In this document: in pieces, positions 1-58,585 of the stretch
Numbering within the stretch: the stretch's first letter is position 1
Layout of the letters: each line of letters begins with the position of its first letter
Assembly (NCBI GenBank): GCA_030141605.1
Contig: JAQGDQ010000027.1
Location: 372,001 to 436,000, forward strand
From: Tubiluchus corallicola
Lineage: Eukaryota > Animalia > Priapulida
Direction: 5' to 3'
Length of the DNA stretch: 64,000 nt
Position numbers and translations under genes: made by a program
The notes under the pieces: generated by a model
What the model was told of the DNA's origin: nothing
What the model saw: the letters and a program-made list of their open reading frames with translations, nothing else
Databases searched by the model: none

Positions 1-364
1 ATGAGTTGTCTAGCAAGTCTACTTTCTTGTAATAGCATTTAGTTATTGCCTTGTTGGAGTGTAAAGGCTGTTAATTACGTGATTAATATCTAAAAGGCAC
101 AAAATTGAAATTTATTTAGCATTAACAACAATAGAGATGAAAATCTTAGATTGTATATAATTGGTAGTCATAATTTGTATTGCATAAAGAAACCTCTCTA
201 GAGCTCACATTAGTGTCCTAATAATTTTATTTTAATTGTGAATTTCACCATTAATGGTGTATGGTATACTTTACAAGGAGTTTTCCCTTTTTGCAGCACT
301 CCTATAGTGCTGGTATTTATAATGGTGTTTGACAAATATTATAGTGGCATTGTTTTAAAAATAG

Positions 365-6300: not shown

Positions 6301-7010
6301 ATCTAGGTGCTAGTCTTGCCACAACCATTCAACATTTGTAGCAACACCACTGTTAAACCTCACTGGCACTGTGGCTCAGTTTTTGTGTGTGTATCATAAT
6401 TGTCATAACATTTTACAATGCATGCTTTATGCTTATGTAGTTATTTTAATGTAGAGTTTGCAAGCTGTACGGGAACTGTTGTGGCTTTGCGCATGAACAA
6501 GGAGTTTGTGGAAGAGGTCACAAATCAAGAATGTGGTGTGCTTATGGATCGAACTTGCTTTTATGCTGAACAGGGTGGCCAGACATTTGACGAAGGGTTT
6601 ATGGTCAAGGAAGGTGATGAGGTAAATAACTTAAATTTAATGGTAATATGCTTACCTTTATATTAGAAAGTTTACAGGGGCTTAAGATAGTGTAGTAAAG
6701 AAGTTAAAGACGGACAAACTAGTTAACAGAAGTAGAAACTGGTGATATATCCACGCAACTAGAGGGCATGTTTGTGGTACAGAATAGAAAAATTGCTGTT
6801 TGCTGTTGTTAGACAAAAGCTGCAGTTAGTTAGTTCCAATTTTGCTACTTGGGTACTTTTTTGCTTTATCTTAATTTGTAAAAACACAAATTTCTTGCAG
6901 AAAGTGATAGTATAGTGCTATACAAATGTTCATAATATATGCTTTATGATAAGTTAATGTGTACATTTATGGACGACTACTAAAAATATAGACTTCTACA
7001 AGCTACACTG

Positions 7011-7044
<34 letters not shown>

Positions 7045-10000
7045 CCTCTCTTGCTCCTTTTTTCTCTTTTTTCTCTTTCCCTTCTACTCTCCTGCTTTCC
7101 CTTCGTTTTTGTCAATCTCTCTCTACCTGATATATGCATGGAGTGGCAAATCAATGACTGAAGAAGCATTTCAGATTTCCATTGTAGTATCCAGTTAATT
7201 AGAACTGATTATGTGTTTGCAACATGTTTGCCTATAAATGAATTTCAAATATTACGACAGTCAGTTTTTTTCCAGGTTTGCTAATTTTTCGTTCTAGGAA
7301 ACAGAGTTTGCTGTTAAGAATGCGCAAGTGCGAGGTGGTTACATTATACATATTGGCAGCTTAGAAGGAACAGTACATGTGGGAGATAAGATGAAATTAC
7401 AAATAGACCAGGTAAGACAGGAGTCCCTTCTAGGATGTCTCTGAGCAGTCTACAGGTTTTACACTGCGTATGCACTGTGGCCAAGAGGTACATGGACTGT
7501 AAACAACATGCTATGAACAATGAAGCTTATATACCATGAAGCGACTGCCTGTGAAGTTTTTGTTCACCATTAGACTTACGCATCAACTGAATACTGCACA
7601 CACAAAGAATAAAACGTGTTTAACTTACGTTTTTACTGTAGCAATTTGACTACACTTATGTATAGCAGACAATGGTGTATTATAACCAGTGGTGCAGCTA
7701 AATTACTGTTATATCCAACAAGCAATGTCAGGCACATTTAACCATATTGAATAATAATTAATGAATCACAAATGGTTAGAGCTGTTATAATTGTACCTCC
7801 TTAGAAGAATTGTGCAATAGAGGTTTTGTGTTGTTCCTATACTGCCGAATTATAACTTGCATTTTAGCCAATCAGAAGTGTAGAATTTTTCATTATATTA
7901 GACAAACTTGAACAACATTTTCCCTCACAGTGTTAGCTGGCTATCTGAATATCTTATTTTTACAGGATCGTAGGAAATTGATAATGAACAATCACACGGG
8001 TACTCACATTCTCAACTTTGCTCTGAGAAAAGTATTAGGTGAAGCTGATCAACGGGGTTCCCTGGTTGCACCCGATCGTCTTCGCTTTGATTTTTCTGCT
8101 AAGGTTTGATTGATTTGATTTATAGTAGCATTTAAATAGAAGTAGTAATATGTTTCTGGAATTGATATCATTGTACTAGCATCAGGATGCAAATGAGATG
8201 CTGAGTTTTAAAAGGCATGACTGACAAAGAGAAAAGAAAGAGAAGTTTGAGGGAAGAGAGAAAGAAAGAGATAGAACAACAAATAAACATTTCTCATGTT
8301 TGGAAATTCCTCAGAACAGCTAGAATAGAAATAAGCATCTCACCTTTTGCCAATGATCAGATTAAGATTTGATATAGCACCAACAAAGAAAAAGAAAAAA
8401 ACACACGTAATAATACCAATTTAAAAACCAAAACTGTCAAAATGTACATATAGGCAACATAAATAATGATATCAAAATCTAAACTATAGAAGCTACAGTA
8501 TATTTAATTTACTTTAATTAACCAAAAATCATTTATCTATCTCAAAGTGTTCTTATTTGCTATAAGATCAATCTTGAATGACTATCACATGTAGTTATTT
8601 AACATTTAACAAATTTATTTAAAATGCATCATACAAATGGAGGTTCACTTATGGCGTTACGTACAAGTGCTTAACTTGTGCCGTTTTACTACTTTAGCAC
8701 TAATGCAGAACAATAAGTTTTATAGAATTGCACATCTGCATAATTCTGTTACTTTGCATTCTGGAAAAACATTGTACGCTATATAGTTCACACGTTTAAT
8801 GCTACTCAAATAATTTATCAGATATTAGTCACATTTTTAAGCTTAAAATTAGCATTTATTGGAGTGGGCATGTGGATTCGTTTCTTTCAATGTGCTTTTT
8901 CCTGTGCTTTTTCTGTCCTCTTATGCTACTTTGAAAGATATTACTTAATTATAGGCTGGAATGAAAGTGGAAGAGGTCAAAAGTGCAGAGCAACATGCAC
9001 AAACCATGATCGAGAAAAATGAAGAGGTTTATGCGAAAGATTCTCCACTAGTCTTAGCAAAGGCCATACAGGGCCTAAGAGCTGTTTTTGATGAGGTAAG
9101 GTGATACTCACACATTAATTTCAATGAACTTTTTTTGTGTTTTTGTCTTTTATTTTAGTAATTAATAGAAAAATTATATGGTTTGTCAATGCCATGTGTT
9201 GTCAGTAGATATTAGTAAATATATTTCTGTTTATTTGTGTGCTTTGCCTTTGCAATGCATTGTATAATGCAAGTGCTATGGATCATTAAAGTGATAACAA
9301 CTGCTACGTAATACTATATATAGATGATAAGAGCAGAAATGTTTATGTTTATATGATTAGTTATTATCATAGTTTTTAAACTGGAGTTGGATTTGAACTA
9401 GGAACTACTGAATTACAAATCTGTGCCATCACTGTTAGACTACTCAGCCTCTTACTGTCGTAGGAGCTCTCAATTCAATTCTTAATGTATGTCACCAAAG
9501 ATAACCGACAAGCCCAATACAGTAGGCGCCACTTAATAGACTCACTTTGGGACCGAAGTGTTTTGACCCAATTAACCGACTGAACCTATTAACCGATTGG
9601 TGTAGTATTACTGGTATAGAAGTATGAGTCACCAGCTTACTATGCACTGCAAAGGTTTTCATGAATTTTAGAAATGAAATCAAGCAGCTGAAAATTAAAA
9701 AAATATATTTTGAAATATTAATTTATACAAATGAATTAGCAATAAGTTGAAAAGTATACTTATCTAAATCACACAAGACTGTATATTTACAAAAAATACG
9801 AAAATTCCTTCAAACTCAGCTGCTTCATTTCATTGTTTGCCTGCAGTTTTGCCTAAGCTTCTGCTTGTTATTGTGACATGGTTACAAACAAAACGGTACT
9901 TAACATGATTGTTTCTATGTATATTATAGGACAAAAGCGAATTAAGATGATGTAAAAGTCATAAAAGCTTATTAGTTTGTCTTAAATGCCAAAGTGTCTT

Positions 10001-13000
10001 AATGAAGCATGTGAAGGAAAAATATTGATTCAATTATGCAGAGTTATTTGAGGCAATTACCGACAGTTTTTATGTACATTAGAATAGAAGTGGCCTGCAC
10101 CAGGCATTTTTGAGTCAATTAAACAATTGTCTATTAATGGTAAGCGGCAGCTACGGTATTTCGAAATGCTAATACATTGTGTTTTTTACAATACCTATGC
10201 ACAGTGAGTTCAGTAACACTTAGCACTTCCAGTAATCTCCAAAATCCAATGTTAAAAAACTCATTGTTAAATGGGGAAAGGGGTGTATAAAAGTTCATTT
10301 TCATCAAGACTAATTCATTCTAAACGGTTCACCTCTTAGTGAAAGCTTACTGTACTGTTATTTCTGAGACTAAAATGTTTTTTCCAGACTTATCCTGATC
10401 CAGTTCGAGTAGTATCTATTGGTATAGCTGTGGAAAAATTGGAAAGTGATCCGAATGGTCCTGCTGGATCAATTACATCAGTAGAATTCTGTGGTGGAAC
10501 GTTAGTATCGCATGAAATTGTTTGCTTTTAGTAATAATGCATACTGTAACACTTTAAGTAATATTGTGGAAGTACTGATGTTCCTTCCTTCTACTTGCCT
10601 TCTAGTACAAATTTTGCTGTTTTTAAGATTTTCAAGCTGAAGGATGCAGACAGTTTTAAACAGCCATTTCCACTTTATGAAAAGCAAATTAATTTTTAAT
10701 TTAAATAAGCAAAGAAGCAGAAATGATTTTCCTTACCATCGACATCAACAACAATATGTGCCCTGGCTGCATTAGCCGACATTAACTTCACACAAAGCAA
10801 ATCAAACCAGTTTTTTGAAACTCAAAATGCAATAGTGTCAAAAGTTGTCTGCATAAATATTTCAAGTATAAATGTGTAAATAAATATAATATTAGTTTAA
10901 TAATAATAGTTTGTTATCCACAATTTACATACATGTTGAACAACAATGACAATATGTAACAATATCTAAGTCTTAAAAAACCAGGTATGTACGTGGGTAC
11001 ATGTGTAAAGCACCCCAGTATGCGGAGAAAAGAAGAAATAGTACAAAAAATGCCGAAAGTACAAACAAGGAGATTGGTAAAGATAGTCAGAGTGACACAG
11101 AGTTGAAAACAGTATTGTGAAACAGTCTAGTTTAAATTGCGCATTAAAGAGTAAGTAATCAGAGAAAATCGAGTTTACAAAGCTACAACAAAGCACTAAA
11201 GAATGCCGAATAAGCAAGCATAATTATTAGTAATTTTGAAAAATATTTTGTTTCAATTTTCTTTTGAATATAAAAATTGATCCTAAAAGTTTAATATATC
11301 ATCATTTTTATTTTATTTTTGTCCAAGTCATAATATGAAAATTATTCTTTAACAAATGCTGTCATTTTGCACTTTGTATTTTGTAGTCAGTTTTTAATAG
11401 ATCAATTCTAGGTAATTTTCATGTAGACAAGCTTTTATTTACGTGCTGTATATAAACTCCGCTATTTCAAAATGTTGTCAGTGCCTGATTTTGGACTTAA
11501 TTTAATGATATTAAAAAATAATTTTTCATATTTTCAGCCATCTACGAAGGAGTGGACATGTTGGAGATTTCATTATCGCATCTGAGGAAGCTATTGCTAA
11601 AGGAATTAGAAGAGTAGTTTGTCTGACTGGATCTGAAGCCACTAGGGTAAAAATTTTAATTGTATTTTATTGTTGATCCATTGCATTTAAATTTTAAGTT
11701 ACAAAATGCTAAATACCATGTCTTCAAACATTTGGACTGCAGCCTGCAGTCATTTTGTGTGATGGACTACACAAACAAAAAACCAGTTTCGTAGGCAGAG
11801 CCTACAGTATAGAAATTATTCACTACATTTTGGTTTCCTTGTAAATACATAATTAGTGAATAATTTCTGTACTGTAGGCTCTGCCTAGAAAACTGGTTAT
11901 TTGTCTGTGTAGTCTATCTCTGATGCAGACTGCAGTCCAGATGTTTGGAGACATGTTTTTTTACCATTTTGTAACTTAAAGTTTTAAGAGAAGTTGTTTT
12001 CTTATTATAATTTAAATTGTCTTTCTCTGTGCGTACAACATTGATACGAAAAAACCATGGTGTTAGTATTTTTTATGGTGCCTCATACGTTGTTTTGTAG
12101 GCGATACATCATGCAGAATTACTGGAAAGTCAATTAGAACGAATCAGGAAAGAATTGCAGGAAAACTGTAAGACATATGAGCAGCAAAAGAGCGTGGTTA
12201 AACAGATTCTTGACTTAACAGATGTAAGCTGATCTCTTAGGTTTTTTATTTGTAACCATGGATAACTTAACTAGAATAAGTACTTTGGTACAATTTTTCC
12301 TCCCTCGCATGTAAAGGAGAGAAAAATGTTCCACCAGCAGAACATTTACACGGTGGAAATATCCAACAAATCTAGTTTCTTATTTTGATTTAAAAATATG
12401 ACAATTTCAATGAAAAATGAAAAATTCTTCTTGCTAATCTATGAGTGTAATTTTACAGGACATTTCAAAGTCTACAATACAGGCATGGAGGAAGGAAGAA
12501 ATGCGAACGTCGTTAAAAAAGCTAAAAAAGCAACTAGATGATCTGGACAAAGCTGCAAAGGCAGCTGTGTTACAATCGGTGAGTACTTTTTTAACTATGT
12601 GATGCAATACTTCAGTGCCTAAAAAACTGCAGTGCAGTCATTAGTATTTTGAATAAGTGCATTAGCATTTTCTTGACTTTTAGGTGGTTGAAGAAGCAAA
12701 AAAGCTCATTGAAATGAATCCTGATGAGAAGATTGTCATACATCAATTTAATGCTGGCACTAATGCCAAGGTAATTTGTCTGAGCATTGTCGACTTGTCT
12801 ACTAACCATTAGTAAAAAGGCTCTGTGTTTATTTCCTTGTGATCGGGTGGTCAATACTAAACGTTTGTGCTGTAATAAGGCATTGATAGCAGTGACAGAT
12901 GGGCTCACAGTTATTAAATTTTGAAACCAAATTTGTCAGAAAAAAGAAAATGTAAAAAAGATGGAGCAGAGCCTGGATTTGAACCAGGAACAATTCGTTT

Positions 13001-14399
13001 ACAATGTAAATTTTTAAATGGTGAACTTAAAATTTTTATTTTTAGGCACTAGATGGAGCTGTGAAACAATTCAAAAGCCTTTCCCCTGGCACAGCTGTTA
13101 TATTCTTTAGTGCAGACAACGATGCTGGAAAAGTGCTATGCATGAGTTGTGTACCTAAAGTACGTGTAACTTCACCCTTTTGTTTGATAAAAAAAAGTTT
13201 ATTTATCCAGTTTAGTAGACAAGAATCATCATTGACGCTTTACTAAAAGCACTGGTCATTCATACTTCATTTTCCTATCTAGCTGTTAAAAGAGAACATG
13301 AGATCAACAGTACTTTAAAGTTTTCTACTCTTGTCTGTGGTGGAGTATATAACTGCAAGCAGTTTTGTGCAATATGGAAAACCTTATAGCTGTCACAGTA
13401 AAATACAGACTAACATGACTGGTATTCCCTTTACAAGAAATGTGGTTTGAACTGCATAAACTATACGATTTGATATATTTTTGATAGTTGTGTGTTTGGG
13501 TAATCGAAGTTAAGCATTTAGAGCCTAGTGTGTATGTGGGTGTGTGAGTGCGGCATTCAGTCTCACTGGTACCTTTCCCTAAACTGGTTTTGGCAATGAG
13601 GAATACTGCTTCATCTTAAGAAAGGCTGCACATATCCGCTACTGGTACAGTCTGATCTCAGAGGAGTATCTTTAATAGGAGAGATAAGTATCGGTCCTAC
13701 CTCAGCCATCTACATTGCAAAAGTCCTTGCGGAACAAGTCAGTGAGCCAATATTGAATAATATATCACCCATTAAAATTGAAAGTGTCACAGGGAGGGCA
13801 CTTTTCTGTGTTTTGATAGGGGTTTCAATTTGAAGAGTGCTGCATATTGCTGCTTACACTGAGGAGGGAACCCATAATGGTGCTGCAAAATATCTGTTTA
13901 TTAGAGAATAAAAACATAAATTAACAAGTATGTATAAACTATTAGAATACTAAAATGTCCCCATGGTTTTAATGTAGTTGGTTTCAGTATTATTTTCTTC
14001 ACTTGCGTGAAGGAAACCACAAACGTCCATACTAGCAGTGACATAATAACTATTATCCAAATGTTTTGATGACAACATTCGTCCTTGTCCAAGGTCATCA
14101 AAGTGTCAGAACACAAAATAAATTAATCATTATGTTATTGCTAACATAGACACCTGTGTTTTCTTTCTATAGTGAATGGAGATATCATGACTTTGTAATT
14201 CATACTATAATCTTTGTTTTAGGACATTGCTATGCAAGGTCTCAAGGCTAACGAATGGGTAACTTATGCTAGCTCCGTGTTGAATGGAAAGGGTGGCGGA
14301 AAAGAACTTGCTGCACAGTCCACTGGCACAAACATTGCTGCTTTGTCAGAAGCCATTAGTTTAGCGCGCAAGTTTGCAAAACTCAAACTGGGAACGTGA
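365..14399 (+). CDS. AARS1: Cytosolic alanyl-tRNA synthetase, 5'-partial, 19 exons
   Basis: GT-AG exons that join in frame: 365-556, 1271-1415, 2502-2647, 2917-3025, 3741-3779, 4178-4292, 4700-4824, 5777-5933, 6455-6621, 7298-7411, 7966-8103, 8955-9095, 10388-10500, 11538-11646, 12101-12223, 12459-12578, 12684-12770, 13046-13159, 14223-14399 (TGA). Motifs: [64 protein letters not shown], editing-domain NHTGTH and EFCGGTH, C-terminal GKGGGK. N-terminal exons lie upstream of the window. Confidence 0.97.
3108..3612. mobile_element. Degenerate copy of the TTAA-flanked non-autonomous DNA transposon at 29794-30482
   Basis: Shares ttaaagcacaa(a/g)aa.., agccattttga and aaagtttgaaaaa.taatcaga.cattcgta in the same order with the 29.8-30.5 kb copy; lies in an AARS intron; right end approximate. 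Confidence 0.5.
7010..7050. repeat. (CT)n microsatellite
   Basis: Directly visible tctctc run in an AARS intron. Confidence 0.9.
9381..9449 (-). mobile_element. tRNA-derived SINE head remnant
   Basis: Reverse complement GGCTGAGTAGTCTAACAGTG...GATTTGTAATTC..GTTCCTAGTTCAAATCC has A-box-like and B-box-like (GTTCAAATCC) elements; related pieces near 2213-2290 and 12965-13005. Stems do not pair well enough for a tRNA. Confidence 0.4.
11691..11982. mobile_element. Foldback/MITE-like long inverted repeat in an AARS intron
   Basis: Arms of about 130 bp, e.g. taggcagagcctacagtatagaaattattcacta versus tagtgaataatttctgtactgtaggctctgccta, and ttaagttacaaaatg versus cattttgtaacttaa. Confidence 0.8.
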
Positions 14400-15555
14400 T
14401 TAACTGCATTTCTGATTTGCAGATAAACTTTACATTGCCAAAATACTTGCTGAATGTCAAATTTCTAGTAAGAACTAATTGTCGTGTTTGATATGTGATG
14501 TTTATGGTAAATTCCAAAAAAATCTTAAACCGTTTATTATCCGTACACTTATGTGCTTAAATAACACGTATGAAATTGTAAAGGATATGTTATTTAATTA
14601 AAAGTTAAAACACCATCTCAAATTACCAAGTAAATCACCCTAGAATCTTTAGCACTTTGCGAAAAACCACCTGGCAAATCAAAAGCAACTTGGATAGCTA
14701 AGATAAAAAAAATGTTTAAGTGTTTCAATCAAATCTTGGCTTTAGGAGCAGAAGAAGTTATGCTGCTAGCTGCAGATAGGAGAGAGTGGAGTGCTGTAAT
14801 AAAATTTAATTATTATGTCTAACAACAGACAGAGTGAGAATTTGATGATGACGATAAATGATAAAATATAATTTCCATTCAGAGTTAGACCTTATATTAT
14901 CATAATGCTTTCTAAGTGTCAAATTTCGTGTAAGAAAATTTTTTTATTATGTGCACAATGGCTATGATTGTAAATTCCACAGTATCCTGTAATTATTATT
15001 ATCACCATATTCATGTTCTTTAATAATACATATGAAATGGTAATGCAATTTCCAAATTCTTGTGTGTAGAATATTAGAAACAGGGCAAAATAATTTGCAT
15101 ACAGGTCAGCAAGTATTTGTTGTTCAAATTTATACGTAAGTTTAGCAAGTTCTAATTTATATATATATCTTTACCACGTTTTTACTATAGTTGCAGTATA
15201 TGACAATCACGCCTAAATTAACTGAAAGAAATAAATTCACAAAGCTGTTCCACATAGCAATACAAAAGCACTCTAGTAGTGTAGTTACTGATTTTGCCCG
15301 TTCTTGTTCCTGGGTCACTACTAGTACATATGGAAGCCCACACGTAACTTCCTATTCATCCCTCGTAATATGTAGTAGTCAAGTGTCTATCTGTGAGCGT
15401 TTTGGAGTTATAAGCCTCCAAAGTGCATACTCCTAAGCACTATTTTGTGACATTTTAGTGTCCTGGTTCAATGGGCCAAAATGCAAAATTTTATAAAAAT
15501 GCCCAAAGCGCTGTAAAAATGGTCCAAAACATCATTCCCGAACGTTTGGCATAAT

Positions 15556-16624
15556 AAATTTAATAATTGTTTGATGTGATAGTTAAATATTCACAAGCAA
15601 CAACAATTTAATGCAAAGTATAATAAATTTAACAATCGTTTGATGTGATAGTTACATATACACAAGCAGTAAAAATTTAATGCAATGTATAACAAATTTA
15701 ACAATTGTTTGATGTGATTGTTAAATATACATAAGCAACAATAATTTAATGCAGAGCGTAAAAAATTTAACAATCGTTTGATGTGATAGTTAAATATACA
15801 CAAGCAGTAAAAATTTAATGCAATGTATAACAAATTTAACAATTGTTTGATGTGATAGTTAAATGTACATAAGCAACAATAATTTAATGCAAAGCGATAC
15901 AAATTTAACAATTGTTTGATGTGATAGTTATCACAAGCAACAACAATTTAATGCAAAGTATATTAAATTTAATAATTGTATGATGTGATAGTTAAATATA
16001 CACAAGCAACAACAATTAAATGCAAAGTATAACAAATTTAACAATCGTTCGATGTGATGGTTAAATATACACAAGAAGTAAAAAGTTAATGCAATGTATA
16101 ACAAATTTAACAATTGTTTGATGTGATAGTTAAATATTCACAAGCAACAACAATTTAATGCAAAGTATAATAAATTTAACAATTGTTTGATGTGATAGTT
16201 AAATATTCACAAGCAACAACAAATTAATGCAAAGTATAATAAATTTAATAATTGTTTGATGTGATTCTTAAATATACATAAGCAACAATAATTTAATGCA
16301 AAGCGTAATAAATTTAACAATTGTTTGATGTGATAGTTATCACAAGCAACAACAATTTAATGCAAAGTAAATTAAATTTAATAATTGTTTAATGTGATAG
16401 TTAAATATACACAAGCAACAACAATTAAATGCAAAGTATAACAAATTTAACAATTGTTCGATGTGATAGTTAAATATACACAAGGAGTAAAAATTTGATG
16501 CATTGTATAACAAATTTAACAATTGTTTGACGTGATAGTTAAATATACACAAGCAGTAAAAATTTAACACAAGGTACAATAAATTCAACAATTGTTTGCT
16601 CTGATAGTTAAATATACATAAGCA
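15556..16624. repeat. 69-bp minisatellite, about 15.5 copies
   Basis: Consensus aaatttaacaattgtttgatgtgatagttaaatatacacaagcaacaacaatttaatgcaaagtataac; the copies at 15901 and 16310 carry the same 5-bp deletion. Confidence 0.95.
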
Positions 16625-16893
16625 TATAAGTTTCAAGTTATAATTTATTACAACCAATTTATTACATGGTATAATTTGTTTGTTACACCTAAGATCGAGC
16701 TGATTTTACATAAAGTTTTTTGATTAGACTAAAACTTTTTCTACAACAATATTAAATGCAATGTAGGTAATAGTGGTCAGCTTCGTGAGCCTCTTTAATA
16801 TACTGCCTGCTATAATGTATCATTATTTAAAATTTTCCACAGCAGTATATGAAGCAGAGGACATCTCAATGTCTCACAGTGAAACTAGCTTAT

Positions 16894-19800
16894 CTAACAA
16901 TCCATCTTATCTAGCTTATCTGAGCTAGATTCGGTGACTTTTCTGACCTTTCTGGCAGAGGTCTTCAATTTCGTCCAGGCATTTGAGAATTTGTACATTC
17001 TGACTGCTTTATCAAGTCCCTGTTCTCCATCATGTCCCTCTTGCATTTTCGTTCTTCTAATTTGCAAGTATAAATCTTGTATTTGCTTCTCATTAAGTGT
17101 CACCACACCGTTCTTTGTAGGCACAGTGTTTTCTTCAATGCGTTTTCTTATTCCATCTGCACATAAACTTGTTAGATACAGCAGAGGTACGCCTTCTACT
17201 GTCTTTGTCGTATACTCGTCCAGAACATTCACGTCATCCAGAGAGCAGTGCGGCATGGATTCATTTCTACAGCATTCTGATAGATATTGTAAAATACTAC
17301 TGACACGATTAACAGCATTTTCTTCACTCCACTGTTTCTCTTCAGAGATTTTCTTTACTTCATGAAGAAAAGCTGTTTTGATTAAATAGGAGTCTATCAG
17401 CTTGGTTGGTTGAAACATTAGAATATTAAGCAACCTTCCAATGTTGATGGTATCGATGATTTTGTCGAGACCTTCTTCATTAGATTGCAAAGGTTTTCCA
17501 TAAAGTTCTTCTTGCATTAGGGTTTTTGTAAGACGCATCACTGTTTTTCGTGTTTCTGGCAAGTTCTGTATTATTCTGCTTTCTTCTTGGCTTGATGACA
17601 GTGTCCATAAACTGTTGTCAACAATATTTTTAAAGGGCTTGCAAACGGCATGTAAATTAAAAGGTGGCAGATAGGAAGATTCTTGCAGTGTATGAGATGA
17701 TGGTAAAGAAGTTGATGCTTTTGATTCACTGTCACAAATTTCAATAGCAGGTGAAAAGTCTATGGCGACTGGTAAAGCTTTGTAAAACTCTCCATGATAA
17801 ACAGTGTTAAACCTTAGGCAAACTTTGTTGTATTCGATGTTTACAAAGGAAAGGTTTTCCTCACTAGTGACCACAGCTGCCATAGCTTCACATGTAATGG
17901 GTATAAATTTATCTTTAAGTGTGACTTGCAAATGCTTGCCATCACTGTGCTTAAAAATGCGTATAAGACCTGGAACATAGGTCTTGTCAATGGACACTCC
18001 ATTACTGAACTTCCTTAAAACAACAAGGAAGTCATACTCATCTGGCAAACCAATTTTTGTGCCAGATGAAGAACTTCCTACTAATATAGGAGAACAAATA
18101 AACTTCTGCTTGATTTCGCCAATTTTCTGACAAACGGTCTCCATAACAGTTGACACTTTTTGTGTGACGTCATCATTCTCTAAAACTTTTGGAAGATTTC
18201 CCAAAAACTTTATATCGAGTAGTCTAATTATTTTCTTACATCCTGCAATATCTTTTTCAGTAGGTGACAATGGTTCAAGTGTGCTTTCAAGCTTGTTGTG
18301 TATCTCAGATCTGGCACCTAATAAGTAGCCCACCGTTTCTTTATAGTCATCATTGAGTGTCATTACGTTCACTAAGCTTATGTACAATTCTAATGCTGTT
18401 AACCCTTTGTTATTTGGCTGTTCAAGATACGAGAGAATGGAAGTTTTCTTTCCAATGCAGTGTTGCACTATACATTGTACGATGCCACTCTTACATCCAA
18501 CATGGGTTTGTGCAGCTGCGTGTAGTGGCGTATCACCTTCATAATTGCAGATGCCTGGATCACTTCCGTTCTTTAGTAGAAGTTGAACCAGCTTTAAATT
18601 TTTCCTTTGGACAGCATAGTGTAGAGCTGTATTGCCAAACACATCCCTTTTGTTTATAAAATTATGTAACTCTGATTGTGGTCCTTCTTCTGTAGCAGTT
18701 GACTGATTGTTGGAGTCAAGCATTTTTGATAAATGTCGCAGTAAGGCTTGTGTAGTTTCTTTGCTGCCAGCTTTAGATGCAGCTGTGAGAGCTGTCTGTT
18801 CATCTCGGTCAGCTATTGTGCTGTTAGCACCATGAGAAAGTAATAATTTAACAATTTCGTGATGCCCGTTAGCAGCTGCAATCATCAGAGCAGTCACACC
18901 GTATACGTCAGATTCATTGCAATTAGTTCCACGTGACAGAAAACGTTCAACAGCTATTTTGACATTGTGCTTTGAAGCAAGCATGAGAATAGTCTGTTGT
19001 GTCTTATTATACTTATACAAAAAGTCTTCAGTGTAAAATAAATTACGTTGCGAATGACGTACTAAAAATGTGTCACCAAGATGTGGGTCTGCATTGCCAA
19101 AGCATACTAGCATGCTTGGGGCTTCCTCATCATTGTTATTTGCAGCAATTGAAAGTGGAGTCGCGCCGTCTTTGGTTTTGGCATTGCTGTCAGCACCAAA
19201 AGCCAGAAATTTCAACATGGCTGCATAATTGCCAGCTCGCGTAGCATACATGAGAGGCGTCCATCCATCCTCAGTACTGGCATTACAATCTGCGTTACTT
19301 CTAAGCAGCAAGTCAACCATTTGTTGGTTGTTATTTTTAGCTGCATACATAAGAGGTGTCCATCCATCTTTGGTACACACATTACAGTCTGCATTGCTAC
19401 TGAGCAGCAAATCAACCATTTGTTGGTTGTTATTCTTAGCGGCATACATAAGAGGCGTCCATCCGTCTTCGGTGCTGACATTACAATCAGCGCCGCTTCT
19501 GAGTAACAAGTGAACTGTGTGATGGTGGTCATTTTTAGCTGCGTGTAACAAAACAGTAAGTCCCTGCACATCAGCAACATCACAATCGGCACCATGAGCG
19601 AGTAACTGCGTTACTATGTCTCTTCTTCTTTCAAAAGCAGCTTCTTCAGCTTCTTTAGCTGCTTTCATGAGAGCAGTCTGTCCAACATTATCTCTGATAC
19701 TGCAGTCAGCACCACTAGAAAGTAAGAGTTCAACTACATTCATGTATCCTTGATAAGCTGCGTACATGAGGGCAGTCCGTCCAGTATTGTCACTGACATT

Positions 19801-20982
19801 GCAGTCAGCGCCACTAGAAAGTAAGACCTCAATGACATTTATGTGTCCCCTAAAAGCTGCTTCCATGAGAGCAGTCCAACCAATCATGTTTATTTCATTA
19901 CAGTTAGCGCCACTGGAAAGTAAAAGCTGAACTATGTTTACATGTCCATTAGCCGCTGCTTCCGTGAGAGCAGTCCGTCCATCGTTGTCACTGGCATTAC
20001 AGTTCGCACAACTGGAAAGTAAGAGCTCAACTATATTGACATGTCCTTTTAACGCTGCTTCCATGAGAGCAGTTCGTCCATTTTTGCCACTCATGTTGCA
20101 GCTAGCGCCGGCAGAAAGTAAGGGTCGAACTATATTTACGTATCCTTTTAAAGCTGCTTCCATGAGAGCAGTCTGTCCATTTTTGTCACTAACATTGCAG
20201 TTAGCACCTTTAGAAAGTAAAAGCTCAACTACATCCACGTGTTCGTTATAAGCTGCCCACATGAGAGCAGTCCGTCCTTTTTTGTCACTGATGTTGCAAT
20301 CAGCGCCACTAGAAAGTAGGAGCTGAACTACATCTACGTGTCCATCAAAAGCTGCTTTTGTGAGAGCAGTCAAACCATACTTGTTACCAACATTGTAGTT
20401 AGCGCCACTAGAAAGTAAAAGTTTTGCTACATCAATGTGTCCTCTTGAAGCTGCTTTCATGAGAGCAGTCTCCCCAGCATTATTACTGATGCTGCAGTCA
20501 GCACCACTAGAAAGTAGAAGCTGAACTACATCCACGTGTCTCCGATCAGCTGCTTTCATGAGTGCAGTCTGTCCATCATAATTTTCACTAATATTACAAT
20601 TAGTGCCGCTAGCAAGCAAGAGTTCTGCTACATCTTTGTGTCCATGGTGAGCTGCAAAAATGAGAGCCGTCCATCCAATATCATCTCTAACATTACAATT
20701 AGCGCCACTAGAAAGTAAGACCTTTGCTACGTTCATGTGTCCATTATAAGCTGCACACATAAGAGCAGTTATGCCATACTTATCGCTGACATTACAGTCA
20801 GCGCCACTAGAAAGCAAATGATGCACTGCATCTGTTTCTCCTTTCAAAGCTGCTTCAATGATAGCTGCTTGTCCTCTCCTGTCTTTTCTAGAATTACACT
20901 CAGCGCTCTCAGTGAGCAAAAGCTCATCATCAGGTGCTGTTTCCTGTAGTCTTCTATATTTAGATAGTGGCGCTTCCTCCAT
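16894..20982 (-). CDS. Ankyrin-repeat array fused to a Mab-21/cGAS-like nucleotidyltransferase (candidate cGLR), 1362 aa
   Basis: One uninterrupted ORF; ATG in AAGATGG context with an in-frame TGA shortly upstream. About 23-24 GxTALxxAAxxG...LL..GA repeats, then LVGSSSSGTKIGLPDEYDFLVVL, AIDFSPAI, WTLSSSQEE, RLTKTL, IDSYLIKTAFLH, LQYLSECC...MPH...NVL, matching the Mab-21/cGAS motif order. AATAAA on the minus strand at 16644-16649 and 16658-16663. Confidence 0.93.
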   Translation of the reverse strand: MEEAPLSKYRRLQETAPDDELLLTESAECNSRKDRRGQAAIIEAALKGETDAVHHLLSSGADCNVSDKYGITALMCAAYNGHMNVAKVLLSSGANCNVRDDIGWTALIFAAHHGHKDVAELLLASGTNCNISENYDGQTALMKAADRRHVDVVQLLLSSGADCSISNNAGETALMKAASRGHIDVAKLLLSSGANYNVGNKYGLTALTKAAFDGHVDVVQLLLSSGADCNISDKKGRTALMWAAYNEHVDVVELLLSKGANCNVSDKNGQTALMEAALKGYVNIVRPLLSAGASCNMSGKNGRTALMEAALKGHVNIVELLLSSCANCNASDNDGRTALTEAAANGHVNIVQLLLSSGANCNEINMIGWTALMEAAFRGHINVIEVLLSSGADCNVSDNTGRTALMYAAYQGYMNVVELLLSSGADCSIRDNVGQTALMKAAKEAEEAAFERRRDIVTQLLAHGADCDVADVQGLTVLLHAAKNDHHHTVHLLLRSGADCNVSTEDGWTPLMYAAKNNNQQMVDLLLSSNADCNVCTKDGWTPLMYAAKNNNQQMVDLLLRSNADCNASTEDGWTPLMYATRAGNYAAMLKFLAFGADSNAKTKDGATPLSIAANNNDEEAPSMLVCFGNADPHLGDTFLVRHSQRNLFYTEDFLYKYNKTQQTILMLASKHNVKIAVERFLSRGTNCNESDVYGVTALMIAAANGHHEIVKLLLSHGANSTIADRDEQTALTAASKAGSKETTQALLRHLSKMLDSNNQSTATEEGPQSELHNFINKRDVFGNTALHYAVQRKNLKLVQLLLKNGSDPGICNYEGDTPLHAAAQTHVGCKSGIVQCIVQHCIGKKTSILSYLEQPNNKGLTALELYISLVNVMTLNDDYKETVGYLLGARSEIHNKLESTLEPLSPTEKDIAGCKKIIRLLDIKFLGNLPKVLENDDVTQKVSTVMETVCQKIGEIKQKFICSPILVGSSSSGTKIGLPDEYDFLVVLRKFSNGVSIDKTYVPGLIRIFKHSDGKHLQVTLKDKFIPITCEAMAAVVTSEENLSFVNIEYNKVCLRFNTVYHGEFYKALPVAIDFSPAIEICDSESKASTSLPSSHTLQESSYLPPFNLHAVCKPFKNIVDNSLWTLSSSQEESRIIQNLPETRKTVMRLTKTLMQEELYGKPLQSNEEGLDKIIDTINIGRLLNILMFQPTKLIDSYLIKTAFLHEVKKISEEKQWSEENAVNRVSSILQYLSECCRNESMPHCSLDDVNVLDEYTTKTVEGVPLLYLTSLCADGIRKRIEENTVPTKNGVVTLNEKQIQDLYLQIRRTKMQEGHDGEQGLDKAVRMYKFSNAWTKLKTSARKVRKVTESSSDKLDKMDC

Positions 20983-21330
20983 CTTGTTCTGAGATAAGAA
21001 TCACAACGTGTTGTGTGCCCAAACGTGATATTTCCCCGCAGGATAAGCTTCACAGTGCCACCTATAGAAAAAACGGGTATTATGAGTTTAACCGACCCAG
21101 TGTGAGTTTTTCATGATATTACAGTCGGAGTTTTTTATTATTCAAATCATTGTTTAGCAAACTAAATCATATCAGATGTATTTCTCAAACAAGAAGCAAT
21201 ATGACTAATCAAAAATCAACAGAAAAATCACTTCATCATCCATTCTTCATGTTCATCAACATGTACAATATTCCAGCATTGATCTCGCTTTGATTTCCTT
21301 CTTTTACAGATATTAAATATCACGAACGAT

Positions 21331-23289: not shown

Positions 23290-24171
23290 AAAAAAATAAT
23301 ATGAGAAAAGTCTGGAAAACAATCAAAGAGATAACTAATTACAAACTCAGAAACTAATTTTCTCCTAATGAAATCTACGATAATCTATAAGATATAGTTC
23401 AAATATTAAACAAATATTAGTAATATTAGACAAAATCTGGCAGATAAATTACAGCAAGCTAATACAAAATTTCATTCGTCTCTTCTTAATTCTATCCCAA
23501 TTTTTTTATGTCCAGTAATAGAAAATGAGAGATATATTCTACAATTAATCAATTATATAGCTGTAAATCGCCAGGTCCTGAGATTATTCCTACATATTAA
23601 TACAAAATAGCTGTTGATGCCATTACACCAATACTAATGATACTATTTAATAAATCTATTACAGAAGGAATTTTTTGTGATATTCTCAAACTCTAAAATA
23701 GTCCCAATCTATAAATGAGAATGTGCAGGAAATTCATCCAATTATAGTCCTTTATCCTTAACTGCTATCTCCAATTGCAAATTTATTTGAAAAATTAATT
23801 TATATAAGGCTGGATAATTTCTTACTGAAAAGCAATGTAATGTCAGATTACCAGTTCGGATTAAGGAAACGTCACTCGACTGTTTTAGCCGTTTCTGAAA
23901 TCACTAATAGAATACTCTATAATGTTGATAAAAACATTTCATTTGTGCACATTTCTAAAATATTTTAGAAACATGATATTTTAATGCAGAAAATGGAATA
24001 TTGCGGTGTAAGCGGACACTCCCGAAAATTGTTTATATCATATTTACAGAACCAGCAACAATATACATGTATCAGAAACATTAAGTCACAGCCAATGAAT
24101 GTTACTAGTGGAGTGCCCCAAGGTTCTATATTAGGCCCCTTCCTATTTCTGCTCTATATAAATGACCTTGT
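23290..24171 (+). mobile_element. Decayed CR1/L2-like LINE ORF2, 5' part of reverse transcriptase
   Basis: Frameshifted peptides KVWKTIKE, KSPGPE, YQFGLRKRHST, FISYLQNQQQY, SGVPQGSILGPFLFLLYINDL; interrupted by the LTR element at 24172. Confidence 0.9.
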
Positions 24172-24355
24172 TGTTACACGCTACAATAATATTAGCAACC
24201 AGACAAATGCATGCATAATAAAGTAGTATTTATTAAACTAATTATGAACTTAAACAAAGAAGATCAGAGCAGCATGACAGTCTAGAATGCAGAACCTTGC
24301 TAAGCAATCACCAAGATCGTTGATTTACACAAACCATATCTATGGTATTGTTACA
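24172..24355 (-). repeat. 3' LTR
   Basis: tgttacacgc...gtattgttaca; polypurine tract AAAGAAGGGAAGG adjoins it on the minus strand (24356-24368). Confidence 0.95.
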
Positions 24356-27300
24356 CCTTCCCTTCTTTAAAGTTGAAAACAAATTCTGTTAACTAAGTCA
24401 AGCTAAGTCAAGTTCATCTAGAATTTAGAAGTAGTATCAACTGTATTTGACAGTGTGCCTACTGGCAAGTAAATCAAGTGCTAATGAACTCAATGAATAA
24501 TCCTGAATAAAGTAGTATACAAATATTACTAAAACTTAAAACAACTTTGAGCATCAAGAAATACATTAGGTACAACACTTCTTGTTTAGATTTCACAAAC
24601 AACATTAATACGAATTTAAGTTTTTCAATTTCAACAGTGAATTTCAAATGAATAACTTTTATTCTCAGTGAAAACCTAGACTTGAACTTCAAATCCATCA
24701 ATAACTTCAATAAATGAAATCAAAAGAGTAACTACATACTGTCACTCTATCTCTTAACAATGCAACATAGGCACATATTAAAATTAACTGGTTGTATCTA
24801 AACTTGTGCAAAAGTTGCAAAATGTAAAATGATAATACAGATCAATAAACTATAATACTGCAAGTAAATAAGTATAATGTTCTTAATTCTCATCGTTCCT
24901 AGCCACTAAACAATTTGACAAACAAATTATTCATAATCATTTCAAAGTGTAAGACTACAAGTTCAATTATCCTCAAAAAACACAAAATTGGTCTCAAAAT
25001 GAATACATGTAAATTTAAACATGTTTGCAAAAAAATCACTATACAGAGTTCATTCTCTGAACCTCAAAGGTTTTCTGACTTCTCTACCAGAAAGAGTTGT
25101 TACAGTGCTACTCCTAGGTTCTGGCACAATCACTGCTGATGCACCAGGTAAGTTTATTTTACCAAGCTTAACAGGAAGTACACTAGTATGTTTAAACTGT
25201 TCCTCAGGTTCAGCACCATTCATAACTCTGTCAGGCTCCTCAGATAATTTCCGTAGATGTACTCTGTTTCTGCGATAAATACCTTGATTGGTTTTAACTC
25301 TGTAAGAACAACGTATATCATCTGCACTGTCCATGACTCTTCCTTTTAACCACTGCTTGGTACCGGGTTGGGGCTGTACTCTAACAACTTCTGTAGGCAT
25401 AAGTTCCGGCAAGTCTCTTGCATCTCTGTTATAGTACTCAGCTGATTTTTTCTTCTGATTATGCATTCGTTCAACTGACAGATCATACTGTGAAGATTGA
25501 AGTAGTTGAGCTGTCATAGGCAATAGTTACTTAGTTCGCCTGTTAAACAAACGCTGTGCTGGTGATGTACCAATTCCTTGCGTGGGAGTATTGCGAAACT
25601 CCAGTAATGCTAAAAGTGGGTCACTTCCAGCTAACTTACTTTTCATAACCAAATTCTTTACAGTTTTCACAGAATTTTCCACATGACCATTACCTTGTGG
25701 ATATAAAGGCGATGATGTTTTGTGTTCAAAACACCACTTTCGAGAAAACTTAGAAAAGGCATGACAAGCAAATTGAGGGCCATTGTCGGGTCTGACCAAA
25801 TCCGGAATGCCATGTCTGGCAAACTGCATCTTCAGTTTGCGGATTACCGTCTCTGAGTCAGTATTCTCTAAGTAATCTAATTCAGCAAAATTGGAATAAT
25901 AATCAACAGTCACTAAATAATTTTTTCCATCAATGTAGCACAAATCAGTGCCAATTACTGACCAGGGTCTAACTGGAACTTCAGAACTAATCAAAGTTTC
26001 CTTTTGCTGTTTTCTATTTAAGGCATTACAAACAACACATTTCTGAATATATTCTTTAATCTCATTATTCATATTCGGCCAGTATAGACATTCACGGGCT
26101 CTTCTCAAGCAACCTGCAATTCCAACATGACTGCTGTGTACTTGTTCTAGCATCTCTTTTCTCAGGGCTTTAGGAATCACAATTTGGTTACCCTTTAAAA
26201 TCACACCATTATGAACTGTGAGCTCATCCTTTAGTGAATAATACTGACTAATCTCTAAAGGAAAAAAATCTTTTCTTTCAGGCCAGCCATTAAGAATTGT
26301 AGATCGCAGTGTCAATAAATCACTTTCCGTATATGCACGAATTTGTTTAAGTCTCTCTTGAGACACAGGTAAGTATTGCAACACATTAACATTGCTCAAG
26401 TATTTCTCATACTTGGTTAAGTCTGGCTGATCTTGTAGATAAGCTCTGCTTAGTGTATCAGCTACATACATTGTAGGACCTGGTTTGTAAATTAACTTCA
26501 GATCATCACATTGAAGTTTAACTAGCATAGACTGTAAACACTTTGGTGCTGAATGAAGTGGTTTTTGCATAACAGCCACCAAGGGCTTATGGTCTGTCTG
26601 AACCACTACATGACGACCATAAACATACTGGTGAAACTTTGTAACTGCAAAAACACATGAAAGTAGCTCTTTTTCAATCTGAGCATACCTTATCTCAGTT
26701 TCTGACAATGTTCTACTGGCATAAGCCACTGGTTGTCCATTTTGCATAATGGCAGCTCCAAGACCTTTCTCAGAAGAATCGCATTGTAAGGTGACTTCTT
26801 CTTTAGGATCATAGTAACTTTAGTACAGGTTCCTGGGAGATAGCTGATTTTATAGTTCGGAAAGCTTTCCCCTGGGTTTCATCCCAGTGCCACAGTACAT
26901 TTTTCTCAGTAAGTTCTCTAAGTGGCTTGCACATGTCACTTAAGTTAGGAAAAAATTTAGATAGATAATTAACTAATCCCAGAAGTCTCCGAACACCAGA
27001 CACATCTTGTGGGGCAGGCATTTCTATAATAGCCTTAACTTTGTCTGGATCAGGCCACAGACCTTCACTTGTTAATATGTGACCAATAAACTGTACTTTA
27101 CTCTGACGCAGCTTAATTTTCTCTTCGTTTAAGACTAAATTTTTCTCTCTGCATCGTTGCATAAAAGCTCGGACATTTTCATCATGGTCCTTATTTGCAA
27201 TTTTTAGTGTCCCTCCGTTGCCAATAACTAGCACATCGTCTGCTGCACTCATAACATTCTTTAAACCTTCTAGAGCCTCATCTTGTTTGCGTTGGTACTA

Positions 27301-29132
27301 CTCAGGAGCAACCGATATGCCAAAAGGCATACGTCGCCAACGATAACGTCCGAAAGGTGTATTAAAAGTGGTTAAGTAAGAGCTAGATTCATCTAGTTCC
27401 ATTTGCCAAAATCCATCTTGGCATCAAAAATACTGAAGACTTTGGCTTTACTCAAATCTGGCAAGACATCTTCAATAGTCTTTAGAGGATAGTGATTTCG
27501 CCTCAAAGCCTTATTTAGATCCTGAGGATCTATACAGACTCTCAGCTGGTTGTTTGATTTTCGTAGAACAAGAAGGCTAGATACGAAATCTATAGGAGTT
27601 GTGACTTTAGAAGGAATTTCTTGAGATTCAAGTTTATCTAGTTCCTTCTTTAAGTCATCCTTCAAAGCAACAGGTACACGTCTAGGTGGATGTACTACAG
27701 GGGGTACATTAGAATCTACTTCTAAGTGCAGTTTTCCAGGAAGTTTACCTAGACCTTCAAACACATCTGCATAATCACTTAGCAAAACATCTTTGGTTAA
27801 TTCTCTATCTGCAGTTGAAGAACTATCAACACCTAGAATATTTTCATGCTTCACTTCAGCAAATTCATTTGCTGAGCAGCAGAATTACCAATTATAGGCA
27901 AAAGATTTTCTTGCACTACAACACATTTCACTTTATACTTTCTACCATTTTTAGGATTTATCATTTTAACAACACAACTACCCACTGGTACAGTTTTTCC
28001 TCCATCATACGTGTAAAGCAGTTTTTTCTCACTATGATTAATCAACTGACTGGAAGGCAGAAAATTGGCTGATATCACATTGCATGTTGCACCACTGTCA
28101 ATCAGAAAACGAATAGGTTTCTTACTCACCAGCATCATAGCAAATATTTTATTACCAGGTTTCACACTTGAAGAATGAAGCGCTTGCACACTCCAGTAGT
28201 CTTCCGAATTTTCACTATCAGAATCTGAGTCACCACACTGTACATCACAAAACTGCTGATTAAGGGTGCGTACATTTCTTTTTCTACTATATGATGCAGA
28301 TTTTCTAAGAGAATCACATTTAACTTGCAAGTGATTCCATTGCTTACACTTAGCACAATGCTTACCATATGCAGGGCAACTATCACGACCAAAAACATGT
28401 CGTTTCCCACAAAATTTACAGCATTTTTGGTGTGAGTCATACATAGCTGAGGTCATTTTTTGCTTCACAGATTGCACCACGTCTGACTGTGCACAACCAG
28501 CAGATTTAGTATAGTTAGGCTTAGACCTATTTTTCATCTTGCATTTTACACTGTTGATTTTCTCAGTTGGCATTTGACCATGGGCAAATTCTTTAATTGC
28601 AGAGTGAGAAAACTCAGCAGCACGACAGGTTTAAAGACAAGTGTCAAATCTGTAGTTTTCAATAGTCTTTCTCTGATTTCTTGACTATTTACGCCACATA
28701 CTATTCTGTCACGCAATAGAGAAACTTCCAACTGCCCAAATTCACATGTACTAGCCAGCACTCTCAAAGCTGTTACATATTCATCAATAGTTTCAGAAGA
28801 ACTTTGTACTATAGTAAAGAATTTATATCTTTCAAATGTTTGATTGGCAGTTGGAATACAATACCTTTCAAAGGCTGTAAACAGGTGTGCGGCAGTTCGT
28901 TCAGCTTCAGGTGTAGTTATATTTAATGTGGGGTAGATTTCCCTACCTCTCTCGCTTCTTCAGTTTTGTCACTAAGTGCAAGTTCCATATACAAGCTAAA
29001 TTCTTCACGCCATTTTTTCCATGCTTATGACAGATTGCGTGATTCGAAGTTTAGCGCGTTAGGTTGTTTTAGCTGATTCGAATTTGCTGTCCGAATAAAT
29101 ACTCAAAGCAAACTAGTTCACTTCTGACACCA

Positions 29133-43181: not shown

Positions 43182-44422
43182 GTTTACTGCTGCTTCTCCG
43201 ATACCTTACAGCTAAGTCACCTAGCAAAATGATGGTATGTCAACATCTGAAAAGTAATTTAATATGAATAAATAGGTCATCTTAATCAATTTGACATTAT
43301 GTGATACACAGCAATGAAATGAAAAAATCAAACTGGTGTAAATTAATAGTTTCGAAAACATAAACGGGATTGGGTTCAGTCCAATTTGTTGACAATTTCT
43401 TAGCGGTTAACATGTCACAACAACTTTCCATATATAAAAGCATTTAACAGGTAATTACTATAGTTCCACATTTCATTTTGCCACAGAATGGATCGCACAT
43501 AATTATAAAATGCAACCGACGTGACATTTTCATATCTTTCAAAATTAGTAATCCGTTTTATTCAACATCACAACAAAGAATTGTTGTGTCACAGTAATGC
43601 GTACTACACATATAGAAAGTCGACCCAAGCCGATAGTTTTGTATAGAGTTATACAATAAGCAACGTATTAGTTGCGTTGATATTAAATCCCAAAGCATTG
43701 TACGGACTAGCATAAGTAGTATGTCCTTATGGCTTCATTTTGCCACAAGCTGTGAAGGAGCTTCCATGCCCAATCTAGCGATCTTCCTCTTTCATAAAAA
43801 GTTTTGTACAATCCAATCTGCCTGAGTGACATCTCAAATAAAACGACCAATTGATAAAGCATGGATCCAGAATTACACGCAATATAAACTCCACCGCTCA
43901 AGGGCAGTCCGGCAAGGGAATTAGCTTTGCTGCAGGGAGCCTCATGGTCAATCCATCTCCACATGAATCCATTGTTGGTGAGCTAGCCATCATCACAGCT
44001 CACAAGAGAAAAAAATTAACACTGAACAGATATAATTGCGTCAATAAAGGTTTTCGCTCAATAATATTGTAACGAGTTCCAATGAATTATGTCGTTACAT
44101 ACAAAAAATTGCGTCGTTACAACAACCAGTCAATTACTAATCAATACGGTGCATTCTCCCTAATTATTAACGCCCTATAACCAAAGCTTATGAATTACTA
44201 TTACTAGTACCCTGGACCCAGGCACTCGAAACCGCTTGTGGTTGAAATTTTGATTTTGCCGTCTGCCGCCACTAATCTGCGCTTCAGCAGAGTTGGCATG
44301 TATTTTCAAGGCGATTTCACCATTCGATCTAATAATAGGTGGCGTACTCATGAACTCAGCATATCCGGTTCCGTTTTCTTTTTCGTAAAAGTGATTACTC
44401 AATATAATAATTATGTGTGATT

Positions 44423-58450: not shown

Positions 58451-58585
58451 TTCATTCGTTTTATTAGCCCATTTACTGCCACTGAAACTTTAAACGGCAA
58501 CACAATTTTGAGAAAAAAGGAATATACTTTATAATTCTGTAAGACGAAAATTTACACAATACATTTTAATACATAGCGTTCAAAG

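What the first reader, a model, noticed from the sequence alone, without database searches (positions are those of the whole stretch)
16894..20982. Giant ankyrin-array cGAS-like receptor: candidate sensor-enzyme fusion making a nucleotide second messenger
Seen: one 1362-aa ORF with about 23-24 ankyrin repeats (roughly aa 37-870) followed by a complete Mab-21/cGAS-fold domain. Known: cGAS and animal cGLRs use hG[GS]-x9-13-[DE]h[DE] plus a downstream Asp to make cyclic dinucleotides that activate STING, and some invertebrate cGLRs carry accessory repeat domains. Inference: the large ankyrin solenoid replaces or gates nucleic-acid sensing, giving a receptor for a protein or other ligand with an enzymatic output, analogous to an NLR. 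I cannot name a ligand, product or characterised orthologue for this architecture.
Basis: partly seen in the sequence, partly recalled or inferred. Interest (0 to 1): 0.88.

Follow-up and report, generated by a model that had tools for sequence, protein, structure and literature searches.

The report
Long ankyrin-fused cGAS-like receptor gene
This is a real, intact animal gene that joins about 23 ankyrin repeats to a cGAS-like enzyme domain with all its catalytic residues; that build is already catalogued in invertebrates, and the idea that the repeats sense a protein and switch on a nucleotide alarm signal is likely but untested.

Summary
ORF 16894-20982 (minus strand, 1362 aa) carries 23 ankyrin (ANK) repeats plus one degenerate repeat, then a cGAS-like receptor (cGLR) domain. 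G969-S970, E982, D984 and D1075 are invariant in 11 of 11 clade members. The AlphaFold model (pLDDT 91.6) matches oyster Cv-cGLR1 best (Z 26.3).

The architecture is not new. Li et al. 2023 (PMC9980059) catalogue more than 50 ANK-fused cGLRs, including the closest named relative, Priapulus XP_014668761.1 (33% identical). A Lineus protein has a longer array (26 repeats against 22 by one rule). This scan also found ANK-cGLRs twice before on other genomes.

What this copy adds: an all-ANK clade whose array length runs from 3 to 22 repeats, with a conserved junction motif. The tandemly expanded repeats keep their scaffold (dN/dS 0.33) while the binding face varies freely (about 1.1). The enzyme domain is acidic (pI 5.65), unlike nucleic-acid-sensing cGLRs (above 8.5).

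Best reading: an ANK-gated cGLR triggered by something other than nucleic acid (about 45%). Ligand, product, expression and STING partner are untested. Verdict: new member of a known kind.

The parts
16894..20982 (-). ANK-cGLR coding sequence, 1362 aa, uninterrupted ORF
   Evidence: contigs span the domain join
19684..20874 (-). ANK repeats 1-12 (aa 37-433), a homogeneous tandem expansion, 59-80% identical in DNA
   Evidence: pairwise matrix; Tandem Repeats Finder period 99, 11.7 copies; scaffold dN/dS 0.33, binding face about 1.1
19168..19563 (-). ANK repeats 14-17 (aa 474-605), holding a second duplicated block; repeats 15 and 16 are 84% identical in DNA
18439..20874 (-). whole ANK array, 23 repeats (aa 37-848)
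18304..18399 (-). degenerate repeat or capping helix pair at the ANK-enzyme junction (aa 862-893), a clade-specific motif
   Evidence: leave-one-out HMM: 9 of 11 clade members score 8.8-18.3 bits, best of 105 outsiders 0.7 or less; helices in the model
17083..18270 (-). cGLR (Mab-21 fold) domain, aa 905-1300: spine helix, NTase core, C-terminal helix bundle; no zinc thumb; pI 5.65
18031..18081 (-). active-site motif V968-G969-S970-x11-E982-Y983-D984
   Evidence: G969, S970, E982 and D984 invariant in 11 of 11 and in 48 of 48 rows of alignment A1
17758..17760 (-). third catalytic acid D1075
   Evidence: invariant in 11 of 11 and 48 of 48
16897..17082 (-). basic helical C-terminal tail (aa 1301-1362, pI 9.6), function unknown
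   Evidence: helices at lower confidence in the model
20989..21000 (-). candidate 3' splice acceptor (pyrimidine run then AG) ending 6 bases before the ATG and in frame with it, so an upstream exon is possible
   Evidence: read from the sequence; not confirmed by RNA

Best explanation
The gene encodes an ankyrin-fused cGAS-like receptor whose enzyme domain keeps all catalytic residues and is predicted to make a cyclic dinucleotide alarm signal, likely when the long ankyrin array binds a protein or other non-nucleic-acid trigger. Shown here: the intact ORF, the cGLR fold, the catalytic G-S/E982/D984/D1075 set, an acidic enzyme domain, purifying selection on the repeat scaffold with a freely varying binding face, and a junction motif conserved in the clade. 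Inferred: catalysis; relay of ligand binding through the proximal repeats and junction to order the G-S loop; output through STING. The product may differ from 2'3'-cGAMP, because the residue matching human cGAS R376 is T1127.
For: Structure ranks active cGLRs first: Cv-cGLR1 Z 26.3 (rmsd 3.0, 313 aligned), Tribolium cGLR 24.3, mouse cGAS 23.6, Sp-cGLR1 23.4; bacterial CD-NTases and OAS score 18.3 or less. Catalytic residues, K1115, S1198-Y1199 and K1202 are invariant in 11 of 11 proteins that are only 28-39% identical to the query. All 11 clade members carry ANK, 3 to 22 repeats (FastTree support 0.996), and 9 of 11 share the junction motif. The model of the last six repeats plus enzyme has pTM 0.81, which fits a fixed packing; the interface was not inspected. 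Domain pI is 5.65 and the spine region has 5 basic and 5 acidic residues. Li et al. report pI above 8.5 for DNA- and RNA-sensing cGLRs and propose non-nucleic-acid ligands for acidic ones. Across repeats 1-12, amino-acid change concentrates on six positions chosen beforehand as the DARPin binding face (pN 0.48 against 0.19, permutation p 0.0004; the positions are recalled).
Against: No activity, ligand or product has been measured for this protein or, in the papers I found, for any full-length ANK-cGLR. Acidity is not special to ANK fusions: median pI 5.94 in 58 ANK-bearing against 5.57 in 32 ANK-less homologues, p 0.69; 2 of the 10 nearest relatives have pI about 8.3 and a third 7.9. Variation at the concave face is normal for ANK proteins, and dN/dS of about 1.1 cannot be told from neutrality. 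Three ANK-fused Macrostomum cGLRs (apparently another clade, judged by their motif) were screened with sequences that seem to lack the ANK part and bear no 'active' note, which counts weakly against simple autoinhibition. Three shrimp Mab21 proteins made no cGAMP and signalled by binding IKK-epsilon (PMC12928593). The basic tail (pI 9.6) could still bind nucleic acid. The junction motif failed in 2 of 11.
Confidence: 0.45

Rival explanations
1. An ordinary nucleic-acid-sensing cGLR (dsRNA most likely), in which the ANK array only localises or scaffolds the enzyme.
For: Nine of the 15 active cGLRs in Li et al. respond to dsRNA (7) or dsDNA (2). The basic C-terminal tail (pI 9.6) could bind nucleic acid. 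Some clade members have domains with pI near 8.
Against: Domain pI 5.65 and net charge -8. The spine region has no excess of basic residues in any of the 11 clade members. There is no zinc thumb (compared with the human cGAS sequence shown).
Confidence: 0.2
2. A non-catalytic or nucleotide-binding adaptor: the Mab-21 domain binds a nucleotide or a kinase and the ANK array scaffolds partners, as reported for shrimp Mab21 proteins with IKK-epsilon, or like the MiD49 fold.
For: PMC12928593: three shrimp Mab21 proteins bound no nucleic acid, made no cGAMP and activated IKK-epsilon. MiD49 scores Z 22.8, close to the active cGLRs. Only 15 active enzymes came out of the 140 screened by Li et al..
Against: The shrimp proteins are said to lack canonical ligand-recognition residues. 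Here the full metal-binding set is invariant across the clade, and present in 94 of 97 aligned domains, which is hard to explain without catalysis.
Confidence: 0.2
3. A silent or dispensable gene copy, a recent duplicate or retrocopy next to transposon debris, whose long array comes from replication slippage and has no special function.
For: The coding region has no intron. A Gypsy remnant lies about 4 kb upstream. Similar but non-identical contigs show further copies in the species. Array length varies widely in the clade.
Against: 4.1 kb without a stop or frameshift. The repeats diverged to dS about 0.68 while the scaffold stayed at dN/dS 0.33. A candidate splice acceptor and AATAAA signals are in place. 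This shows past selection, not present expression.
Confidence: 0.15

Closest known systems
ANK-fused cGLRs of Li et al. 2023 (PMC9980059), in particular Priapulus caudatus XP_014668761.1 (P0004)
   Same: N-terminal ANK array plus complete cGLR domain. Same clade (support 0.996), 33% identity, E 1e-40. Same L-V-G-S motif with E-x-D and third D. Listed in their Tables S1, S2 and S4.
   Different: 6 repeats against 22 by the same rule. Domain pI 8.3 against 5.65. XP_014668761 does not occur in their screening table.
Lineus longissimus XP_064642866.1 (P0034, 1734 aa)
   Same: Giant homogeneous ANK array (26 repeats by the rule that gives 22 here) followed by a Mab-21-like domain with G-S, E-x-D and third D.
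   Different: Outside this clade in the tree, so the giant array probably arose separately. Long low-complexity N-terminus. Annotated only as an ankyrin protein.
Oyster Cv-cGLR1 (8GJW), Tribolium cGLR (7LT2), coral Sp-cGLR1 (8GJY)
   Same: Best structural matches, Z 26.3, 24.3 and 23.4; same catalytic layout.
   Different: Activated by dsDNA or dsRNA; nucleic-acid sensors have pI above 8.5. Only 16-18% identical.
Vertebrate cGAS
   Same: Fold (TM-score 0.60-0.67 over the query); catalytic acids; equivalents of K362, S378 and Y436 kept (aligned by motif).
   Different: No zinc thumb, no basic spine, R376 replaced by T1127, S434 by D1197. An ANK array sits at the N-terminus.
Acidic cGLRs such as Pd-cGLR and Sp-cGLR2 (Li et al. 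2023)
   Same: Low pI; proposed to respond to a non-nucleic-acid ligand.
   Different: They were active in vitro without added ligand. The Pd-cGLR sequence shown has no ANK array.

Membership tests
cGLR (Li et al. 2023 criteria) | GS-x8-20-[DE]h[DE]h-x50-90-h[DE]h catalytic motif | tested here: met
   G969 S970, x11, E982 Y D984 F, x88, I D1075 F; invariant in 11 of 11
cGLR (Li et al. 2023 criteria) | Q or T just before GS (h[QT]GS as printed) | tested here: inconclusive
   The letter here is V968, so the printed pattern is not matched at this place. The authors' curated list holds XP_014668761.1 with the same LVGS, and active Pd-cGLR and Ep-cGLR carry C and A there, so the letter is not defining in practice.
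cGLR (Li et al. 2023 criteria) | homology over both the NTase core and the C-terminal helix bundle | tested here: met
   Mab-21_C above cut-off; profile of A2 matches Sp-cGLR1 residues 40-362, E 2e-50
cGLR (Li et al. 2023 criteria) | predicted structure matches known cGLRs | tested here: met
   pLDDT 91.6, pTM 0.91; top match Cv-cGLR1, Z 26.3, rmsd 3.0, 313 aligned
cGLR (functional) | ligand-triggered synthesis of a cyclic dinucleotide that activates STING | not testable with these tools
   needs biochemistry; no genome is held in which to look for STING
ANK-fused cGLR class | ANK repeats and cGLR domain in one polypeptide | tested here: met
   single ORF; contigs span the join
vertebrate-type cGAS | zinc thumb and basic DNA-binding spine | tested here: not met
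   no His/Cys insertion after E1134 (against human cGAS); pI 5.65
MAB21L1-type developmental proteins | close similarity to MAB21L1 and no predicted functional active site | tested here: not met
   17% identity, Z 20.2, below four cGLR or cGAS entries; full catalytic set present

The most novel reading that the evidence does not exclude
ANK-cGLRs of this clade are an NLR-like class of variable-sensor immune receptors. An ankyrin array expands by tandem duplication and diversifies its concave face to detect pathogen proteins or altered host proteins. It is coupled through a conserved junction to a cGLR that releases a lineage-specific cyclic dinucleotide. That would be the first protein-sensing branch of the animal cGAS-STING system.
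Probability: 0.3. Interest if true: 0.75.

Novelty: new member of a known kind. Interest (0 to 1): 0.3.

Why it matters
All defined animal cGLR ligands in the paper read here are nucleic acids, and Li et al. leave open what acidic or repeat-fused cGLRs sense. This clade offers a natural series of the same enzyme and junction with 3 to 22 ANK repeats, which makes the open question testable by domain swaps. The gene itself does not answer it, and short members such as the Priapulus proteins would be easier to work with.

Tried and rejected
No whole genome is held, so STING, copy number and synteny could not be checked.

Two word-index protein searches with the enzyme domain found nothing. This is low sensitivity, because the unindexed search then found 115 relatives.

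No RNA holder was listed for the stretch. The run guessed to be RNA held only short pieces of about 85% likeness. Neither says anything about expression. A second read-laying aimed at paralogues and at another sample gave no result, so presence or absence between individuals is open.

The ESM Atlas gave no answer. The complex prediction of the ANK part with the enzyme part gave no verdict.

A viral origin was considered: none of the 7 pattern matches in viral contigs was a relative (single-sequence query, close relatives only). The neighbours are ordinary animal genes. No second copy lies in the window.

The idea that ANK fusion goes with an acidic enzyme domain was tested and rejected (p 0.69). 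Positive selection on the ANK face is not shown (dN/dS about 1.1). 'Uniquely giant' was rejected by the Lineus protein.

The host phylum was not resolved. The nearest named sterol reductases are from ticks at about 50% and the nearest named cGLRs from a priapulid, which only hints at an ecdysozoan.

A paper search for an engineered cGAS with LVGS (PDB 7LZ3) gave no usable passage. Rows dropped: 19 of 116 proteins with a domain under 230 aa were left out of the tree and the pI count.
Full report
Observation. The window is animal DNA of about 34% GC. The finding is one uninterrupted ORF on the minus strand, 16894-20982, 1362 aa. A pattern finds 22 ANK starts between aa 37 and 816. An HMM and the model add one at 728, giving 23, and a degenerate repeat or cap follows at about 862-893. 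The C-terminal third carries Pfam Mab-21_C above its cut-off, while the Mab-21 NTase model alone is below cut-off. A profile of relatives matches Sp-cGLR1 over both lobes (E 2e-50). The AlphaFold model of aa 905-1300 (pLDDT 91.6, pTM 0.91) matches Cv-cGLR1 (Z 26.3, rmsd 3.0, 313 aligned), Tribolium cGLR (24.3), cGAS (23.6) and Sp-cGLR1 (23.4), ahead of MAB21L1 (20.2) and CD-NTases or OAS (18.3 or less). Short-read contigs span the ANK-enzyme join; they come from one sample that may be the assembled one.

Context. The gene lies tail to tail with an alanyl-tRNA synthetase gene whose last exon reads at about 14223-14396, across a 69-bp minisatellite. Upstream lie a broken Gypsy element (about 25050-28960), a sterol reductase, a CCCH zinc-finger gene, Mss4 and tektin. 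None suggests a functional cluster, and no second copy is in the window. A splice-acceptor-like sequence ends 6 bases before the ATG, in frame, so the true N-terminus may be longer. Contigs of lower likeness pile up over the 3' part of the gene, which points to further copies in the species; they were not counted.

Relatives. The enzyme domain finds 115 representatives at E 0.001 or better, and 60 of these 115 have two or more ANK repeats by a strict count. The ten best (28-39% identity, E below 1e-28) form one clade with the query (FastTree support 0.996, on 97 of 116 domains), and all ten carry ANK. Four are named, all from Priapulus caudatus; six are unnamed Logan records. G969, S970, K976, E982, D984, D1075, K1115, S1198, Y1199 and K1202 are invariant in all 11, as is a clade signature N-K-V-C at 1052-1055. 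Repeat number runs from 3 to 22 by one rule. A helix-pair motif at the junction is recovered in 9 of 11 members by leave-one-out HMMs (8.8-18.3 bits) and in none of 105 outsiders (0.7 or less); P0003 and P0010 fail. So the fusion is old and fixed in this clade, and the array length is the variable part.

The array. Repeats 1-12 are 59-80% identical in DNA, and repeats 15 and 16 are 84% identical, so the length comes from tandem duplication in this lineage. Among repeats 1-12 the scaffold has dS about 0.68 and dN/dS 0.33. Six positions chosen beforehand as the DARPin-randomised face have dN/dS about 1.1 against scaffold dS, and differ from random sets of columns (p 0.0004). The position list is recalled; PMC8229355 (passages seen) confirms only that such positions lie on the concave binding face. 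The repeat pairs are not independent and gene conversion may act. This shows a maintained protein scaffold with a freely varying binding face, not positive selection.

Mechanism. The enzyme domain has pI 5.65 and net charge -8, a neutral spine region and no zinc thumb. Li et al. report pI above 8.5 for nucleic-acid sensors and suggest other ligands for acidic cGLRs. I therefore favour a receptor in which a protein or other non-nucleic-acid trigger binds the ANK face and, through the conserved junction, orders the active site (45%). Of the five human cGAS residues listed for 2'3'-cGAMP binding in PMC4117786 (one passage seen), the equivalents of K362, S378 and Y436 are kept, while R376 is T1127 and S434 is D1197 (aligned by motif), so the product may differ. 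Against this reading: acidity is as common in ANK-less homologues (p 0.69), and some clade members are basic. Three ANK-fused Macrostomum proteins, screened apparently without their ANK part, bear no 'active' note. Shrimp Mab21 proteins act without making cGAMP (PMC12928593, passages seen). Rivals: nucleic-acid sensor with a scaffolding array (20%), non-catalytic adaptor (20%), silent or dispensable copy (15%).

Comparison with what is known. Li et al. 2023 (PMC9980059) state that some cGLRs carry ANK or TPR modules and show ANK-fused coral cGLRs. I saw text passages, sections 6 and 7, parts 1-3 of 41 of Table S2, part 1 of 8 of Table S3, and term searches; the supplementary figure file could not be read. 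More than 50 accessions with ANK hits stand in the parts of Table S2 that I read. The closest named relative, XP_014668761.1, is in Tables S1, S2 and S4, and Priapulus is listed with 5 STING genes. Table S3 was searched with 12 terms plus four Priapulus terms and not read whole, so other ANK-fused proteins may have been screened. Lineus XP_064642866.1 has 26 repeats by the rule that gives 22 here, and an intact motif. Five paper searches combining cGLR, cGAS or Mab-21 with ankyrin, or cGLR with non-nucleic-acid ligand (listings seen), showed no functional study of a full-length ANK-cGLR; the library lacks most subscription papers. Two earlier notes of this scan reached the same class on other genomes. 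I had found the catalogue before reading them.

Verdict. A real and well-formed gene, and a new and long member of the known ANK-cGLR class. The open question, what these receptors sense, is real but belongs to the class and was already posed in 2023. Interest 0.3.

Noticed in passing
window 41859-43205 (-): Intronless 7-dehydrocholesterol reductase-like gene (ERG4/ERG24). The nearest named proteins are from ticks and a scorpion at 47-51%; below them bacterial and other animal proteins mix at about 44%. An intronless sterol reductase with this pattern could merit a transfer test.
   Followed up: partly
window 345-14396 (+): Multi-exon alanyl-tRNA synthetase gene ending tail to tail with the ANK-cGLR gene.
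   Followed up: partly
window 15551-16624: AT-rich 69-bp minisatellite, 15.7 copies, 85% matches, with a 409-bp higher-order period, just past the 3' end of the gene.
   Followed up: no
window 25050-28959 (-): Broken Gypsy-like retrotransposon (protease, RT, RNase H, integrase pieces in several frames); a LINE-type RT fragment lies at 23969-24223.
   Followed up: no
window 45346-50218 (+): A 603-codon Ser/Lys/Thr-rich exon followed by CCCH zinc-finger exons, possibly a ZC3H3-like gene (name recalled, not tested).
   Followed up: no
window 56782-58489 (-) and 61811-63921 (+): Mss4/RABIF exons and tektin exons.
   Followed up: no
proteins P0016 and P0020 (Ruditapes, Mercenaria): Proteins of about 2250-2290 aa with two Mab-21-like domains, several ANK blocks and a MYND finger, a more complex cGLR architecture than the one studied.
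   Followed up: no
window 16774-17640: Extra contigs of lower likeness over the 3' end of the gene, one with a 9-base deletion at 17319, suggest paralogues elsewhere in the genome.
   Followed up: partly
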